From assembly GCF_009914755.1 (NCBI RefSeq), contig NC_060940.1: DNA of 64,000 nucleotides, one strand, 5' to 3'. The DNA comes from the human T2T-CHM13v2.0 reference genome, Homo sapiens. A model generated the notes under the pieces. It made no database searches and was not told the origin of the DNA. It was given only the letters and a program-made list of their open reading frames with translations. Positions 4,031 through 39,320 of the stretch are shown here, in pieces (position 1 is the stretch's first letter; each line of letters starts with the position of its first letter). A program made the position numbers and the translations under genes.

Positions 4031-5215
<1,185 letters not shown>

Positions 5216-5416
5216 TAGTGTGCATTTTCATCTGGCCACTTTTGCCAGATCCTGCCCTTTTGGTAAAATACTAAATGAAATATGAAGATCTCCCTTTTGC
5301 AGTGGGAGGAACCAGGGCATCTGGGTCAAATCCCCAGGAGTCTCATCAGTCAGAGCCTTGAGCAAGAATGCCCGGGAGAGAAAACATCCCTACATGCTAT
5401 TTAATGGTGTTTGTCA

Positions 5417-19287: not shown

Positions 19288-19726
<439 letters not shown>

Positions 19727-20711: not shown

Positions 20712-23392
20712 TAGCATCTCCCTTGGTTAGTTCTGTCTGTGGGGATGGATTGCTCATTGTACAGGGAGGAAACCATGGAGGACCTCAGTTTCCTTAGCAG
20801 AGGTGAGCAGAAAGTGTGGTGTTTGTCTTAGTAAGTTGCTCCAGGGTCGACGATCATGCCCCTCTCCAGCCAGGGCCCCGCTGTCTAGCCCAGTGCGCTC
20901 TGCACACTTTCTTGGGCTAGGCTTCCCACCCATGCCTGCCACACATGCCTGACATCCAATTCTGGCATGTTTCAGAATTGGATGGAATCTGGTCTTTCAC
21001 CACATTTCAGAGATTGCTCCTTTTGAGCTGGGCCCAAAAGATTTTGCCTGCCATTTTCTTGGGTGGTTGTGGCTGCAAAACTGGGAAGGTCTGGGGCATC
21101 TTTCTTCTTTGACCTATCTGTCCTTTGACTTAGAGACAAGGACGTATTTTAGGAGTTTCACATGGTTTTTGTCTACCTGATTATCCAAAATTTCTCATTA
21201 AAAAAAAAAAATGGAACCGAATGTTGTGGTGCACACCTGTAATTCCAGCAACTTGGAAGACTGGCGGGTGGGAGGATCACTTGAGCCCAGGAGTTTGAGG
21301 CTGCAGTGACCTATAATAGTGCCACTGCACTCCAGTCTGGATGACAGTAAGATCCTGTCTCAATAAATAAATAAATAAAATAAAATGCATTAAAGCAATT
21401 TTTTTTTCCCTTAAAAGCCCCACTAGTTAGGTTCTGTGGGTTGACCAAGATGTTGGTGTGTGAAAGGGAAGATTCCCAGATTCTGGAGCTCACATCTGCC
21501 TGGTCTTTTTGGAGTCTTCCTTCCTGCCTGCCTCTCTTAGCAACATTATTCTGGGTTTATAGAGGTAGAACTTTGACTTGGAGGGTTCCCTAGAAGTAAA
21601 AATTAAACACTAAAAAATTCTTCTTTCTGAGTACTCTAAAATGGTTTTCTCAGGCTCGCTGGGGATGTGGGAGGGTTCTGCATGGAGGTGATAGTTACCT
21701 TTTCTCCATGAAACAAAACTCATATTGAAAAATGTGGCAGGAATCTTTCTTTGGTCTGCTTTCAATGTCTCTCTGTTGATTTTCCTCCCCCTCTGGCATT
21801 GGTTTTCTCCTCTTGTTTGCTATGGTGCCATGTCCTGGTTACAAGTAAGAAGGGTTGCTTTCATATAGTTATTTTGGGGTTTGGCTTAGGCCCAGAGTTT
21901 GACTCGGAAGACTTAAGACCCAATACTAGACTAGCTAGCGGCCTCCCCTCCTCCTCTTGCTGGGCTTCAACTGAGACCTTGTTCTTCTTTGCTGCACTGC
22001 AGAGAACATGAAATACAGTTCAAAATGGAAATCAAGGGAATCCCAGATTGCAGTCTCCTGTAATTCCTTCCTGCTGTCTGCCTCAACACACACCTTCTCC
22101 AGTTCCTCTAAATTCTGGTTCTTAGTTTTTCTGCCATGTTTCCCTTTCCCAACTCCTAGTGTGCTAATGTTGCCCGTGATCATCGTGTATCTTTTCGTTT
22201 GCTTGCTTCACCGTTGCAGTTTCTTTTTGCCGTCTTGTGTCGTGTTCCTGCTGGGACCCACTGAAGATGCCTGGCACAGCCTTGCACATTGTGCTGTTGT
22301 GACGGGACTATCACACGGCCGACAATTTCTGGGGCATCTCTCTCTGCAGTATTGAAACAGATTGTTTTGACTGGGCGCGGTGGCTCACGCCTGTAATCCC
22401 AGCACTTTGGGAGGCTGAGGCAGGCGGATCACTTGAGGTCGGGAGTTCAAGACCATCCTGGCCAACATGGTGAAACCCCGTCTCTACTAAAAACACAAAA
22501 ATTAGCTGGGCGTGGTGGCGGGCACCTTTAGTCCCAGCTACTTGGGAGGCTGAGGCAGGAGAATCGCTTGAACTCGGGAGGCAGAGGTTGGTTGTGGTGA
22601 GCTGAGATCATGCCACTGCACTCCAGCCAGAGAGACAGAGTGAGACTCCATCTCAAAAAAAAAAAAAAAAAGGTAAAAGAAACAGATTATTTTGTGGCTC
22701 TTAGGGTGTGGACTCCAAATTGCATTATCGAGAAACAGACAACTTGTTTCTTACTCTGCAATGAGCCCCTTGCATTGAATTCTCAAGCACCTGGATTTTG
22801 TTCTGCATCCGTCTGGTGCATCCTTAAAAAAAAAAAAAAATGCCTGCGTTCCACGCTGCAACCTTTATGCCCTTCCCAGACCTTTCTTACCCTCAGCTGT
22901 ATTTGCTAGACATTCTTTATTTCTGAGTTTGTATCTTAAAATATTACTGGAACTTTGTGCTTAGTTCCCAAGGGACTTGAACTCTCATGAGCTCTCTGGC
23001 TCATGGCCTGCACCCCAGATCTCCCAACCCAGGGACCATTACCCGGGAAGAGGATTCCACAGTGTTCTTTTCTGTTCCTAGTGATAGAGAACATCTAGGA
23101 TCTCCCTTCTGGCTGCAGAGTCCCGCTTTCCCCCATCTCCATCCTTTTCTGCTCCACGTAACACCTTGACATCTCTCATTTTAGGGGAATGTGGTAGAAG
23201 AGGAGGGGCAGCCGGTTGGCTCATTGGAGGTGTGGGGTTTTTGGCTTTTGGTTTTCTGGCCATGATGCATAGTTTTTATTTTTCATTTCTTCTTGTTCCT
23301 TCCTTCTGGCTTTATTTTTCAAGTTGTACTGCGTACCTTAGGGAAGAAGTATCCAAAATCGTCAAGTGCTTCTATTTAACAATGAAAAGTAA

Positions 23393-32471: not shown

Positions 32472-33660
32472 TGAGCTTGAGTGCCCCGGAAGGCTGCCCT
32501 GTACCCCGCTTCCCCAGGCTACAGCATCAATGGCCAGAAAGCTGCCTGCCCCCTGCTCACATTCCCTCCCAAAGCTCTCATGCATCTTCAGGAATGGGCA
32601 CAGTGTGGCATTCAAAATACGTGAACCCGCCAGGCGCGGTGGCTCACGCCTGTAATCCCAGCACTTTGGGAGGCTGAGGCAGGTGGATCACCTGAGGTCG
32701 GGGGTTCGAGACCAGCCTGACCAACATGGAGAAACCCCGTCTCTATTAAAAATACACAATTAGCTGGGCGTGGTGGTGCATGCCTGTAATCCCAGCTCCT
32801 GGGGAGGCTGAGGCGGGAGAATCGCTCGAACCTGGGAGGCAGGAGGTTGCAGTGAGCCGAGATCGTGCCATTGCACTCCATCCTGGGCAACAAGAGCGAA
32901 ACTCCATCTCAAAAACAAAACAAACAAAAAAACAAAATACGTGAATCCATGTGGCCAGTCCATTGGGCCTGGAACAGGGGCCTGGGGTGCCCCGCTGGGC
33001 TGGACATTAAGCCTTTAGTTACTGGGTCATGAGGCGACAGAGGACTCCTGGGAGGGGCGAGAGCTCAGTACAATGGCTCTGTTATCTACCAATGTGTCAT
33101 GTTTCTGTACTTTAACAACCAGGCCAGCAGCATCTGGGCAGTTGAATATAGGGGCCATGTGGTCATCCATTAGAGTTGACCCTGGGATCCCCTCCTCTTA
33201 AGGCAGCCAGGGCAGGTGAAGTCAGGTGTCCCCGTGTGGATAAGCTGTGTCACGATCCACAGGGCCTTGAGCAGGGCTCAACTGCATGTCACATGCCTGG
33301 GGTCAGTAAAACTGTAACGGCTTATGTCACCCTAAAAAGAGTCCAAAGCATTGTCTTGCCTTCACCCTGGTCCACCCATAAAAGTTAACAGGCCCTCTGG
33401 GAAATGCTGCCTTGGACAGCAGGGCAGAAGGGCCCCGGCAGAGAGAGAGAGCGCTGTGGCCCGCAGCGACCTCTCCGCTCGAGACCTCTCCCGGTGTGGG
33501 CATGTCTTCCCGCTTGGTGTTGGGTTAACTTGCTTCTGGTCCTCTGTTCGGTGGTGGCGTTGCCTTCTGCGCTGGCCCCGTGGATGGATGTTCCTTTTTT
33601 CCGTGGTGACCTCCTCTCCAGGCTCTGCTTGGTGGGCTTCTGGTGTGGCCGCGCCCTGTG

Positions 33661-33760
33661 TGTGTCTCTCTCTGTGTCCTGCCAGTGGTTTTACCCTATG
33701 GTAGGTTACGTCATGCTGTTCTACCACAGGGTAGAACCACGGACAGGATACCGGGGCACC
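33661..33760 (+). ncRNA. MIR140: MIR140 precursor hairpin; miR-140-5p 33683-33704 (CAGTGGTTTTACCCTATGGTAG), miR-140-3p about 33722-33742 (TACCACAGGGTAGAACCACGG)
   Basis: Both mature sequences recognised; arms are complementary (GTGGTTTTACCCTATGGTAG / CTACCACAGGGTAGAACCAC); intronic in WWP2. Seed A at 33684 is the wild-type base. Confidence 0.98.
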
Positions 33761-34463
33761 CTCTGCGTCAACGGACTCCTCGTCTGCCCAGCCACAAACA
33801 GCCCAGCAGCTGGGGACTGGCCCCCTTGGGACATCCCCTTGCTGGTTTAGCTCAAGCCCAAAAGGACTCTGAATTCATGCCTGAGGCTCGCACCCAGGGC
33901 ACGGGTGTTGGTTCAGATGAATGCGTGGAAGTGTGGGAACGGGGATGGTGTTGGGGTCTGGGGGTGAAGGGAGGGCAAAGTGCAAGAGTGTTACATAGCT
34001 GGTGGGCATGAGGTTTCTCATCTGAAGGCAGCATGGATTACATTGTCATGGATCGGGGTTGGAAATGTGTTGCTGTGTATTTACGTTATGTTGCCCGCCC
34101 AGGTAGAGTGGAAACAGGGTAGTTACTATTCAAACAGAACCTTTGCAGAAAAATTATTGTAATAAACATGCATCGTGCCCTTGTGCAGTGCACAGCCTAG
34201 GCAACTGAGCATGGTGACCCAGGGTACAAGGACCCCCTTTACCATTAGAAGCTCTGGATATTGTGATGTAAAGTCTTGGAACACATCACCTGGGAGCCGA
34301 CAATCACACGTTTTCCCAAATATCATCCTCAAATGCAGTTGCCGCCCTGGTTCACTGTAGGTCTGAGCCTGCCCTGTTCACTGACCAGCTGTTCATATAG
34401 GTTAGCCCAGGTGCTTGTCACAGGGCTCGACTCCCTGGGACACGTGTCCCCATACTAACCTGA

Positions 34464-34733
<270 letters not shown>

Positions 34734-34853
34734 TAGTTCCCTCCTCCTCTCCCTCCTCTTCCCTCTCCTGGTGAAGTGTGCCAGGGGCACCAGGGGAATC
34801 TGCTCTTTCTCTGAGACCTCCAGGAAGGGGCAGCATTGGAGGAGGCCCTGGGC

Positions 34854-35508
34854 CTGTTCACCAGGAGGCAGCGTGGCATGAACGGCAGCCCCCGTGGACT
34901 GGCTCACCCTCTCGGGGCTCCACCCTTTGCCCCCATAGAGCTCGTAACCTAAAAATGCAAGAAGCTAGAGAGAGTTCTGGAGAAACCAGAGCTTTCTCAG
35001 TGGCTGCCCTGTAGGTAGTGAAGAGTTTCCATGTTGCTTTGTATAGGACTTGTCAAGAGGGAGCCCAGGGTCTCTGGGCCACAGACTTTACTGAACATTA
35101 AATATGTGCTCTGTTGAGGGCCTTGGGATGACAGGGCCAGGTGAAACCATAGCTGCCCACCTGCTGCCTGTCTCTGGGAGGTGACACTGTCACGGCATTT
35201 GGGAATGTCCCACTGAGACACTAAGCCTTCTGGAAGGGCATTTGGAATCAACACTAGTGTAGAACAAAACGTAAAGTCTGTGGCCCACAGACCCTGGGCC
35301 CCCTCTTGACAAGTCCTATGCAAAGCAACATGGAAACTCTTCAGTACCTACAGGGCAGCCACTGAGAAAGCTCTGGTTTCTCCAGAACTATCTCCAGCTT
35401 TTTGCATTTTTAGGTTACCAGCTCTATGGGGGCGAAGGGTAGAGCCCAGAGAGGGCGCGCCAGTCCATGGGCGCTGCCGTTCACGCCACGCTGCCTCCTG
35501 GTGAACAG
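34854..35508. repeat. Long inverted repeat: arms 34854-35091 and 35271-35508 (238 bp each, ungapped, 16 mismatches), 179-nt spacer
   Basis: Base-by-base comparison of the left arm with the reverse complement of the right arm (position i pairs with 70362-i). Confidence 0.97.
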
Positions 35509-36258
35509 TAGACTGGCTGGTGCAGGGTGTAGGGACATCTGTCAGAAAGTGAGCCAGTTCTGGGGAGGAGCGTCCCAGCGTCTGTATTTAACTGGAAAGA
35601 GGGACACAATGTGAATATGGAAAGGGAGGTCCTGCCACGTGCCCCGTTGAGGGTCCTGGGAGCGTGGAGAACCCGGATTGAGAAGCGGAGCCCGTGGGAG
35701 GCACAGCGCGGGAGCCACATGCATAGCTGGAGATGTTTCAATTCTCCTTTCCTTCGCTTCTTCCCCTGCCTTCCTGAGTGTCCCACCCGGCTCCCCTCTT
35801 AGGAGGACCCAAGCGCCCCATGAGCCTGTGACTAAATATGGCCGGCCCTTCCCATCGTCGAGGAGTTCTTGGCCAAGGTGCTGGGCTCTGGAAATGGGCA
35901 CATTCTTCCCAGGTCTAGAGACCCGCCTGGCCCAGCAGCCAGCAGGACAGACCGGTAAAACCCTAGACTATTACTCACCATTGGCCGCCAGCTCTCGCTG
36001 TCGGCGGTGTCTGCATTATTTTTGGCTGCCTTTGCCACCCACCCTGAGCGCCAGTGAATCAGGGCTGCCACCTGCAGCTGTTCAGAGCAAGCCTTTTCTG
36101 TGAGCGTGGGGCAGACCTTTGCTAGGCCAGGAGCCAGCCGGCCAGCGTGCGGGGCAGATGCGGGCCCGGACGTGGGTTCCCGCACCAGCTGGCTCTGCCC
36201 AGTCCTTGCGGTCTGCAGGGCAGGGTGGGAGTCCCTCTGTAGGTACAAGTCAGGATAA

Positions 36259-36567
<309 letters not shown>

Positions 36568-36859
36568 TGAGTTCCCTGCCCCCTTGCCCCACCGCGCTGA
36601 TAGGAGGGACGTCTCTGGGTGGGAAGCAGGTACTGATGGCCTTTATTTTGTCTGCCAGTGTGGCCCCTGAGCTCTTGTCCAGCCTCTATAAGAGCTTGTG
36701 GAGAGGAATGTCCTCTGGGTTCCCTGGGGACAGTTCTAGAACCTTCTCCTTGAGTCAAGGAGCTGTCCCCTGTCACTGTTCAGGATTCTAGGCCACCTGT
36801 GGGCCCTTGGTGTCCCACGGGCAACAGAGCAGGATCCAGGAAAGACCCTGACACGGTAG

Positions 36860-37033
<174 letters not shown>

Positions 37034-37653
37034 TGAGTCTCAGGCGCCGGGGGCTCCGCTCCAGGGGTGGCGTGGAGATCTAGTGGGTTGCAGAGAAAGA
37101 TGGGCCCCCACCTGTGGCCCATCGGTCACTGTGGATGCCATTTGCATTTGCCTTGATGGTGGCTGCTGGTGGGCGGTCATGTGATGGCGCGAGCTGGGGG
37201 AACCAGAGCCGAGGTCCTTAGTTACCGACTCCCAGCTGTGCTTTTTCGCCATGTGGGAGACTTCAAGCCTGCAGCGTGGAATTTCTTTGAAGTGGCATCA
37301 AGCTGAGACATCTGCATCTTTCTCCGGGCCGAAAGGATCTCTGTGGCCTGTGTGCCTAGACCCACCGTCTCACGTGTGCCCGTTCTCCGTGCCTGTTCCT
37401 CAGGCCTCTTGCTTTAGTCTTTATCTCCACGCTTCCATACGTCTGAGGTTCAGTCGGCGCTGGGGGCAGGAGCAGGAGGAGGTGGTGGTGAGGATGATTT
37501 CAAAGACTCCGGTGTCTGCAGGTCACTGTGAGGTTTTCAGGGCCTCACTCTAGGTCCTCCAGCAGGCTGGGTCTGGGTGTGCGAAGTGGGCTCTGCTGAT
37601 CTGGTGGTCCTGCGCGGTAACGGCCACGCGGCCTGGCCGGGAGCCACCCCTGA

Positions 37654-37827
<174 letters not shown>

Positions 37828-38055
37828 TGAGGTTGCTGGGACCCTGAGCCCCTGCCTCTGGGGCGATCCTGCTCTGTGATACGCTCACTGTGTACCCACA
37901 GACACTCAGCGTAAAACTCCCACTTCGGCAGGGCAGATGGGTTTGATTTGGGACCCACCCTTCCCCAGACACTTGTTTCAAGAAAGCAGGGACTTACATT
38001 ACCCATATTATTAACGCTGACACCAAAAATAGCTAGTTGAATATGTTTGGGGTAA

Positions 38056-38424
<369 letters not shown>

Positions 38425-38709
38425 TGACAGGAGGTCGTCAGTGGTCAGCCTTGGGCCAGCTGGTGTGCAGGGACAGACCTGCAGGCAGACAGCAGCTGCC
38501 ACTGGTTGAGAGGTCCCCTGCCAGCCAGATGGGACAGGAAGGCAGGGGCTTGGCTCCAGAAACCAGAAAGAGCTGTCATCCTATGTATAATTAATGTGTT
38601 GATTCTTTTATACGTATGGGTTTTGTTGTTGTCGTTATGAAGTACAGCATACAAAAAAAAATAGCGATTACAGATATTCTTAGTACATGTCTGTGTGCAT
38701 ATGTACGTA

Positions 38710-39320
<611 letters not shown>

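What the first reader, a model, noticed from the sequence alone, without database searches (positions are those of the whole stretch)
34854..35508. 238-bp ungapped inverted repeat of unique sequence in WWP2 intron 17: a long hairpin RNA co-transcribed with miR-140
Seen: 34854-35091 is the reverse complement of 35271-35508 with no indels and 16 mismatches (93.3%), around a 179-nt loop; the longest perfect run is 45 bp (34973-35017). On the sense RNA 4 mismatches are G-U wobbles (34894, 34928, 34961, 35042) and 5 are A-C pairs (34878, 34906, 34921/35441, 34967, 35062). The arms match no Alu, L1 or transposon TIR that I recognise, and there is no TSD. The stem starts 145 nt after the exon 17 donor and about 1.1 kb after pre-miR-140. 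Established: WWP2-C/pri-miR-140 is highly transcribed in cartilage; stems this long are substrates for ADAR (A-C mismatches preferred) and Dicer/Drosha and can activate PKR. Inference: this may be an undescribed hairpin-RNA module (endo-siRNA source, non-Alu editing site, Microprocessor partner or competitor of miR-140, or splicing modulator), or a cruciform-prone DNA element. I know of no report of it but cannot search.
Basis: partly seen in the sequence, partly recalled or inferred. Interest (0 to 1): 0.88.

Follow-up and report, generated by a model that had tools for sequence, protein, structure and literature searches.

The report
Single-copy inverted duplication in WWP2 intron
A 238-base stretch of ordinary, non-transposon DNA in an intron of WWP2 was copied in reverse next to itself, probably tens of millions of years ago, so the intron RNA can fold into a long hairpin, but nothing seen here shows that the hairpin has a function.

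Summary
Arms 34854-35091 and 35271-35508 are 238 nt, ungapped, with 16 mismatches around a 179-nt spacer. The sense RNA folds at -534.8 kcal/mol, z = -28.

It is not a transposon:
- The arms, the spacer and the whole intron match nothing else in T2T-CHM13.
- No masked repeat lies there.
- There is no target-site duplication.
- No Rfam family matches it.

Mismatch pattern fits neutral decay of one duplication:
- 8 of the 16 mismatches sit at CpG positions.
- G-U and A-C outcomes split 4:5.
- The antisense strand folds equally well (-529.8 kcal/mol).
- The 45-bp perfect run is what chance gives (P = 0.48).

Divergence is 7% (JC 0.070), which suggests roughly 20-60 Myr, depending on the rate used.

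Best reading: a lineage-specific local inverted duplication, probably from replication template switching. Its intronic hairpin is an incidental nuclear double-stranded RNA (dsRNA), probably edited by ADAR.

Genome-wide catalogues already cover this class (non-repetitive dsRNAs, inverted duplicates). No searched paper names this one. It is below the published MDA5-substrate thresholds and has no trans target. Function, editing, small RNAs and orthologues could not be tested here.

The parts
34854..35091 (.). Left arm of the inverted duplication (238 nt); 5' strand of the RNA stem on the WWP2 sense transcript
   Evidence: 222 of 238 positions identical to the reverse complement of the right arm, with no indels. 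Unique in the genome apart from the other arm.
35092..35270 (.). Spacer or loop (179 nt), unrelated to the arms, single copy
   Evidence: only a self match in the genome; about 8 of 24 matches when pairing is extended inwards, which is chance; it folds into small local stems only.
35271..35508 (.). Right arm of the inverted duplication (238 nt); 3' strand of the RNA stem
   Evidence: It holds 7 CpG against 5 in the left arm.
34765..34791 (.). Small upstream sequence that pairs across the left-arm boundary (with 34841-34867). Its 11-nt core at 34765-34775 is identical to the outer end of the right arm. It may be linked to how the duplication ended; this is uncertain.
   Evidence: pair I2, 27 nt, 78%; an exact 11-mer, simulated P = 0.014, post hoc and uncorrected.

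Best explanation
This is a single-copy local inverted duplication of ordinary intronic DNA. One 238-bp segment of WWP2 intron 17 was copied in reverse orientation 179 bp away from itself. The most likely cause is a replication template switch or fold-back event (inferred). It probably happened in the primate lineage some tens of millions of years ago (inferred from 7% arm divergence). The two copies have since drifted apart neutrally. Because both arms lie in one intron of WWP2-FL and of WWP2-C/pri-miR-140, the pre-mRNA can fold into an imperfect 238-bp duplex (shown by folding). From general knowledge of nuclear dsRNA, its expected fate is binding by nuclear dsRNA-binding proteins, promiscuous A-to-I editing by ADAR1 p110 or ADAR2, removal with the intron and decay, with no selected function and no role in miR-140 biogenesis. 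Shown: the structure, its uniqueness, its non-transposon nature and the neutral-looking mismatch pattern. Inferred: the origin mechanism, the age, the editing and the lack of function.
For: The repeat is real and exact. In the genome search with an arm, only the arm itself and the other arm match, 2 of 2 scored candidates. The spacer matches only itself, and the whole 1723-nt intron has one locus. A sequence-only covariance model of the two arms finds nothing else below E = 0.28, and the best extra hit shares 114 invariant columns of 251 with the two arms in a three-row alignment, which is chance level. No masked repeat of 100 nt or more lies between 32943 and 38749. No direct repeat of 5 nt or more flanks the element within +-6 nt of the arm ends. 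Rfam finds only mir-140 in 33400-36500, plus one sub-threshold match elsewhere. Neutral signature: 8 of 16 mismatches fall on the 21 CpG positions, against 8 on the 217 others. Among the 9 transitions, G-U and A-C split 4:5. Sense pairs 226 of 238 and antisense 227 of 238, with MFE -534.8 and -529.8 kcal/mol. P(longest perfect run >= 45) = 0.48. Template switching is documented to create new inverted repeats and stems in primate genes: 53,666 putative events, 31,007 forming new stems (PMC10710096 passages).
Against: No outgroup sequence could be consulted, so the age, which arm is the copy, and the absence of compensatory evolution are all untested. Documented template-switch events are mostly miRNA-sized or smaller, so 238 bp would be unusually long. 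I saw no microhomology at the inner junctions (contexts). Gene conversion between the arms would make the element older than its divergence suggests. The transition:transversion ratio of 9:7 is lower than usual for primate neutral DNA (usual ratio recalled), but the numbers are small. In my local control this was the best-paired inverted pair of 247, and one of only 2 with both arms outside masked repeats. It is therefore unusual, and unusual things can be selected. Expression, editing, small RNAs and protein binding were not testable here.
Confidence: 0.65

Rival explanations
1. The hairpin is a functional RNA module. It would act as an endo-siRNA source, a Microprocessor partner or competitor of miR-140, a dedicated ADAR-binding or editing platform, or a splicing modulator of intron 17, and would be maintained by selection.
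For: The structure is very stable, z = -28. It is co-transcribed with pri-miR-140 on NM_199424.3 and on the full-length isoforms, which are abundant in cartilage (PMC10988806 passages). It is the best-paired inverted pair of 247 in 264 kb of local sequence. Chen et al. 2017 argue that expressed, structurally stable inverted duplicates may be functional (PMC5398296 abstract).
Against: There is no strand bias in wobble against disruptive changes (4:5), and the antisense strand folds equally well. The arms have no other genomic match, so there is no trans target. It sits in a different intron from pre-miR-140, 1093 nt away with an exon between them. It resembles no miRNA family. The apparent age lies within primates, whereas miR-140 function is conserved across vertebrates (recalled). 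Human somatic Dicer processes long dsRNA poorly, and the RNA is intronic and nuclear (recalled).
Confidence: 0.07
2. It is the relic of a low-copy non-autonomous DNA transposon (MITE-like) with long terminal inverted repeats.
For: The architecture of two long terminal inverted repeats around a short unrelated core resembles foldback or MITE elements. The boundaries are sharp.
Against: No second copy was found by BLAST-type or profile search of the complete T2T genome. There is no TSD of 5 nt or more; the best is a 4-nt match at shifted boundaries. The region is not masked. Arm identity of 93% is higher than expected for human DNA transposons, which ceased activity roughly 37 Myr ago or earlier (recalled). 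Caveats: only 150 of 14,538 first-look candidates were scored, closed regions are not shown, and I had no Dfam library.
Confidence: 0.04
3. It is an older inverted repeat whose arms are kept similar by gene conversion or by selection on pairing, so the 7% divergence underestimates its age.
For: Closely spaced inverted repeats are known to undergo intrachromosomal conversion (recalled). [quoted passage not shown] There are no indels in 238 bp.
Against: Mismatch spacing is as expected at random: P = 0.48 for the longest run, and non-CpG mismatches split 4 and 4 between the arm halves. Zero indels is unsurprising when only about 2 are expected (recalled indel:substitution ratio).
Confidence: 0.12
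4. Its main significance is at the DNA level, as a hairpin- or cruciform-prone site that promotes breakage, deletion or inversion of the spacer.
For: Single-stranded DNA folds at -304.8 kcal/mol, z = -27. In yeast, inverted repeats cause rearrangements, and in long ssDNA even widely spaced repeats with up to 25% heterology do so (PMC10164571 abstract).
Against: The same abstract states that spacing and divergence normally reduce IR-induced instability. This repeat has a 179-bp spacer and 7% divergence, and it has evidently persisted long enough to collect 16 substitutions.
Confidence: 0.08

Closest known systems
Non-repetitive intramolecular dsRNAs of the human dsRNAome (dsRNAscan; Andrews & Bass 2025, PMC11838218)
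   Same: An inverted repeat within 10 kb, with arms outside annotated repeats, predicted to form a long imperfect duplex in pre-mRNA. That catalogue holds 497,429 such predictions, of which 4,597 are edited on both arms with a median length of 144 bp.
   Different: This one is longer (238 bp), better paired (93.3%, or 95.0% with G-U) and has a shorter loop (179 nt) than the medians given for edited non-repetitive dsRNAs (144 bp, 87.5%, 509 nt). WWP2 is not mentioned in the main text. I could not see the supplementary tables or the web resource.
Inverted Alu pairs (IRAlu) in introns, the standard ADAR substrates
   Same: An intramolecular intronic duplex of roughly 200-300 bp. Dozens of such pairs lie in the same window: 74 pairs of 120 nt or more within 5 kb, and the 25 longest that are listed are 73-93% complementary.
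   Different: The arms are not a repeat family, so they are unique in the genome. Complementarity is the highest and the spacer the shortest among the 25 pairs listed, and identity is the highest of 247 pairs.
Template-switch mutations that create hairpins and de novo miRNAs (PMC10710096; PMC8794818)
   Same: An inverted copy of adjacent unique sequence, intronic, arising in the primate lineage, which creates a perfect stem in a single event.
   Different: Those events are mostly of miRNA size or smaller, whereas this arm is 238 bp. The ancestral state could not be examined, so the mechanism is inferred and not shown.
Hairpin-RNA (hpRNA) endo-siRNA loci of Drosophila and mouse oocytes (recalled)
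   Same: A long inverted-repeat hairpin made from duplicated unique sequence.
   Different: Those loci derive from, and target, another gene, and they depend on a Dicer able to process long dsRNA. Here there is no other genomic match to target, and small RNAs were not testable.
Genome-wide inverted duplicates (Chen et al. 2017, PMC5398296)
   Same: It fits their definition: arms of 10-10,000 nt and a spacer of 0-1,000 nt. They report 4,315,271 in human, at a density of 0.82 per kb in non-repetitive DNA.
   Different: Their functional analysis covered intergenic cases, and this one is intronic. Most of theirs score far lower (minimum IRF score 20).

Membership tests
Non-repetitive intramolecular dsRNA (dsRNAscan class) | Inverted repeat within a 10-kb window scoring at least 75 by einverted-type scoring | tested here: met
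   222 matches and 16 mismatches with no gaps give 602 at +3/-4. The threshold and window come from PMC11838218 section 20. I did not run their G-U-aware scoring.
Non-repetitive intramolecular dsRNA (dsRNAscan class) | Neither arm intersects an annotated repeat | tested here: met
   No masked_repeat row overlaps 32943-38749, and the arms are unique in the genome. Caveat: the table lists only stretches of 100 nt or more and gives no family names.
Non-repetitive intramolecular dsRNA (dsRNAscan class) | A-to-I editing sites on both arms (the 'edited' subclass) | not testable with these tools
Candidate MDA5 substrate (long, highly paired dsRNA) | >300 bp and >96% of nucleotides paired | tested here: not met
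   238 bp, with 93.3% Watson-Crick pairing or 95.0% including G-U. The criteria come from PMC11838218 section 10. It is also purely intronic in RefSeq (the annotation supplied with the finding).
DNA transposon / MITE | Target-site duplication flanking the terminal inverted repeats | tested here: not met
   The longest flanking direct repeat is 4 nt, and only at boundaries shifted by -2/+4.
DNA transposon / MITE | Multiple related copies in the genome | tested here: not met
   Only the two arms match. The profile search gives nothing below E = 0.28. Caveat: 150 of 14,538 candidates were scored, and closed regions are hidden.
Inverted Alu pair | Arms are Alu elements | tested here: not met
   The arms are not masked and are single copy. 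An Alu would have very many genomic matches.
pri-miRNA or other Rfam RNA family | Match to a curated covariance model | tested here: not met
   cmscan of 33400-36500 at E <= 1 gives mir-140 at 33673-33751 on both strands and a 19.7-bit mir-1545 match at 36385-36439. Nothing falls in 34854-35508.
hpRNA / endo-siRNA locus | A trans target complementary to the arms | tested here: not met
   There is no other genomic match to the arms.
hpRNA / endo-siRNA locus | 21-23-nt small RNAs from both arms | not testable with these tools
   No small-RNA data is available.
Template-switch (fold-back) inverted duplication | Inverted copy lies next to its source with sharp breakpoints | tested here: met
   The arms are 179 nt apart, and identity drops to chance at all four ends.
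Template-switch (fold-back) inverted duplication | The ancestral or outgroup sequence lacks one arm, with switch points showing microhomology | not testable with these tools
   No primate or mammalian outgroup genome is available. Only an 11-nt match between the arm terminus and upstream sequence was seen.

The most novel reading that the evidence does not exclude
The hairpin is a primate-specific cis-regulatory dsRNA in the WWP2/pri-miR-140 transcript. By recruiting ADARs or other nuclear dsRNA-binding proteins next to exon 17, it would tune intron 17 removal, WWP2 isoform output or co-transcriptional miR-140 processing in cartilage. WWP2 protein targets ADAR2 for degradation (Marcucci et al. 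2011, as described in PMC10666284 passages). An ADAR-bound hairpin in the WWP2 pre-mRNA could therefore close a feedback loop.
Probability: 0.04. Interest if true: 0.55.

Novelty: new member of a known kind. Interest (0 to 1): 0.2.

Why it matters
If it is only a neutral inverted duplication, its value is as a clean example. It is a single-copy, non-transposon, 238-bp ungapped hairpin in a highly transcribed intron. That makes it a convenient natural substrate for studying non-Alu ADAR editing, with uniquely mappable arms. It also illustrates how long stems arise in one mutational step. Its position beside miR-140, in a gene tied to osteoarthritis risk, makes an arm-deletion test cheap to add to existing chondrocyte CRISPR systems. 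On present evidence I expect no effect.

Tried and rejected
Transposon origin. I tested this with a BLAST-type genome search of an arm, the spacer and the whole intron. I also ran a sequence-only covariance model of the two arms. The best extra hit, on chr17 at E = 0.28, was aligned and shares 114 invariant columns of 251 with the two arms, and its locus has no comparable inverted repeat. I rejected it as chance. A TSD scan over shifted boundaries found nothing of 5 nt or more.

Known RNA family. Rfam at permissive E found nothing in the repeat.

The spacer as a decayed continuation of the palindrome. Rejected, because about 8 of 24 bases match, which is chance.

Gene-conversion tracts. There is no signal (P = 0.48 for the longest run). 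Twelve of the 16 mismatches lie in the outer half (two-sided P = 0.077), but all 8 CpG-associated mismatches are there, and the 8 non-CpG mismatches split 4 and 4.

Rarity control.
- I planned about 1 Mb of chr16.
- One search returned 20 pieces cut to 10 kb each (200 kb).
- The control therefore rests on 264,000 bases that include the window itself.
- That is a small sample, and it is ascertainment-biased for the window part.
- In the 200 kb of independent sequence, 0 pairs have 200 nt or more at 90% or more in unmasked DNA.

Literature.
- Nine searches were run.
- Every WWP2 hit that I opened concerned the WWP2 protein and ADAR2 or OA genetics.
- From the titles in the listing I took the 'palindrom' hits to be the CRISPR acronym or SOX9 motifs; only PMC10988806 was opened.
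- The coordinate search used hg38 and hg19 number prefixes that I derived from a recalled MIR140 position, so it was approximate. It returned 1 paper, which is unrelated and does not mention WWP2.
- These searches do not cover supplementary tables, which were closed. The supplements of PMC11838218, PMC7006430 and PMC5398296 and the dsRNAscan website may list this locus.

Junction analysis for microhomology was inconclusive without an outgroup.

Full report
**Observation.**
- The repeat finder gives arms 34854-35091 and 35271-35508: 238 nt, 93% complementary, 179 nt apart.
- A base-by-base comparison finds 16 mismatches and no indels, made up of 9 transitions and 7 transversions. The longest perfect run is 45 bp, at 34973-35017.
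- On the sense strand there are four G-U and five A-C or C-A oppositions, at exactly the listed positions.
- The stem starts at intron base 145 and ends 924 nt before the acceptor. It starts 1093 nt after pre-miR-140.
- The upstream exon is exon 17 of 24 in RefSeq Select NM_001270454.2. It is exon 18 of 25 in NM_007014.5 and exon 7 of 14 in WWP2-C NM_199424.3.
- The 695-nt sense RNA folds at -534.8 kcal/mol, against -256.9 +- 9.9 for 20 shuffles, z = -28.
- Pairing ends abruptly at all four arm ends.

**What it is not.** It is not a transposon pair.
- Against the complete T2T-CHM13 genome, an arm matches only itself and the other arm, 2 of 2 candidates.
- The spacer matches only itself. The whole 1723-nt intron has one locus.
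- A sequence-only covariance model built from the two arms retrieved the arms at E ~1e-70 and nothing else below E = 0.28.
- The best extra hit shares 114 invariant columns of 251 with the two arms, and its locus has no comparable inverted repeat.
- Caveats: only 150 of 14,538 first-look candidates were scored, matches in closed regions are not shown, and I had no Dfam library.
- The masked-repeat table has no entry between 32943 and 38749.
- No flanking direct repeat of 5 nt or more exists within +-6 nt of the ends.
- Rfam at E <= 1 finds only mir-140 (110 bits on the plus strand, 51 bits on the minus strand) and a weak mir-1545 match at 36385-36439.

**How it looks evolutionarily.** The mismatch pattern is what mutation alone would give.
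- Eight of the 16 mismatches fall on the 21 positions that are CpG in either arm. The other 8 fall on 217 non-CpG positions, which is 3.7%.
- Among the transitions, pair-preserving G-U against disruptive A-C is 4:5 on the sense strand.
- The antisense strand pairs 227 of 238 against 226 of 238 for sense, and folds at -529.8 kcal/mol. The transcribed strand therefore shows no bias towards keeping pairs.
- A perfect run of 45 or more is expected by chance with P = 0.48.
- The Jukes-Cantor distance is 0.070 (from the 95% interval of the mismatch fraction: 0.040-0.115). That corresponds to about 35 Myr at 1.0e-9 per site per year (range 20-58), 29 Myr at 1.2e-9 and 70 Myr at 0.5e-9.
- I read this as an event within primates. 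The rate is uncertain, and gene conversion would make the element older.
- The sixteen differences also exclude a fold-back assembly artefact (inference).

**How unusual it is.**
- The window holds 74 inverted pairs of 120 nt or more within 5 kb. The 25 longest are listed. This pair is the most complementary of them (93%, against 73-89% for the other 24) and has the shortest spacer.
- In 264,000 bases (20 pieces of 10 kb from chr16:75.30-75.69 Mb, plus the window) there are 247 inverted pairs of 100 nt or more with a spacer of 2 kb or less.
- Of those, 239 have both arms at least half masked. Only 2 have both arms less than half masked: this pair and a weaker one in L021 (153 nt, 87.6%, spacer 1623). 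This pair has the highest identity of the 247.

**What is known.** The class is catalogued genome-wide.
- Andrews & Bass (PMC11838218; outline, passages, sections 10 and 20) ran an einverted-based scan of the whole human genome, with a score threshold of 75 and 10-kb windows.
  - They report 5,134,754 dsRNAs. Of these 497,429 are non-repetitive, and 4,597 of those are edited on both arms (medians 144 bp, 87.5% paired, loop 509 nt).
  - Their candidate MDA5 substrates need >300 bp and >96% pairing (2,018 cases). This hairpin meets neither criterion.
  - WWP2 does not occur in their main text.
- Barak et al. (PMC7006430, passages) show that inverted duplicated sequences are tolerated in introns. 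They also show that most ADAR activity falls on intron-intron pairs that never reach the cytoplasm.
- Chen et al. (PMC5398296; abstract, sections 6 and 12) list 4,315,271 human inverted duplicates.
- Mönttinen and colleagues (PMC10710096, passages; PMC8794818, search listing only) document replication template switching as a one-step source of new stems in primate genes.
- No paper found by nine searches names this WWP2 repeat. Supplements were closed.

**Mechanism proposed.**
- Origin (inferred): a template switch or fold-back during replication copied 238 bp of intron 17 in reverse, 179 bp from its source.
- An 11-nt exact match links the outer end of the arms to a site 79 nt upstream (34765-34775). 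It is the core of a 27-nt imperfect inverted repeat that straddles the left-arm boundary (P = 0.014, post hoc). It might mark a pre-existing small hairpin where copying ended. I cannot test this.
- Consequence (the structure is shown, the fate is inferred from recalled knowledge of ADARs, Dicer and PKR): in WWP2-FL and WWP2-C/pri-miR-140 transcripts the intron folds into a 238-bp imperfect duplex. Nuclear ADAR1 or ADAR2 would be expected to edit it promiscuously, especially at the five A-C sites. The intron is then spliced out and degraded.
- Because the RNA is intronic, cytoplasmic PKR, MDA5 and Dicer should rarely meet it.
- Because the arms are unique, any siRNA would lack a trans target.
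- I see no basis for a link to miR-140 processing beyond co-transcription.

**Verdict.** This is a real, clean and locally exceptional inverted duplication of unique sequence. It is a new member of a known, catalogued kind, and there is no evidence that it has a function.

Noticed in passing
window 34765-34791 with 34841-34867: A 27-nt, 78% inverted repeat straddles the left-arm boundary. Its 11-nt core at 34765-34775 is identical to right-arm 35496-35506 and is the reverse complement of left-arm 34857-34867. Simulated P = 0.014, post hoc and uncorrected. It may be a trace of how the duplication ended.
   Followed up: partly
L021:3368-3520 and 5144-5296 (chr16:75,463,368-75,465,296): This is the only other inverted pair in the 264-kb control with both arms outside masked repeats: 153 nt, 87.6% identity, no gaps, spacer 1623 nt. 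I did not examine what it is.
   Followed up: no
window 33674-33752, minus strand: The mir-140 covariance model also scores 51.3 bits on the antisense strand, below its gathering score of 70. This is the usual consequence of hairpin symmetry.
   Followed up: no
window 35181-35193: A small 13-nt quasi-palindrome (5-bp stem, 3-nt loop) lies in the spacer, centred 6 nt from the axis of symmetry of the large repeat at 35181. It was read and is seen as a small stem in the folds. The rest of the spacer shows no symmetry.
   Followed up: partly
window 34854-35508: The right arm keeps more CpGs than the left (7 against 5), and only 2 are shared by eye in the alignment. Four of the 7 transversions lie in CpG contexts, which gives an unusually low transition:transversion ratio of 9:7. 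The numbers are too small to interpret.
   Followed up: partly
window 1-64000: There are 74 inverted pairs of 120 nt or more within 5 kb. The other 24 of the 25 longest, which are the ones listed, are 73-89% complementary. Several lie in WWP2 introns (for example 19393-19604 with 22379-22590, 89%) and around the CLEC18A 5' region. Where I compared them, their coordinates fall on Alu-sized masked stretches. The same pre-mRNA therefore already carries many conventional dsRNA-forming pairs.
   Followed up: no
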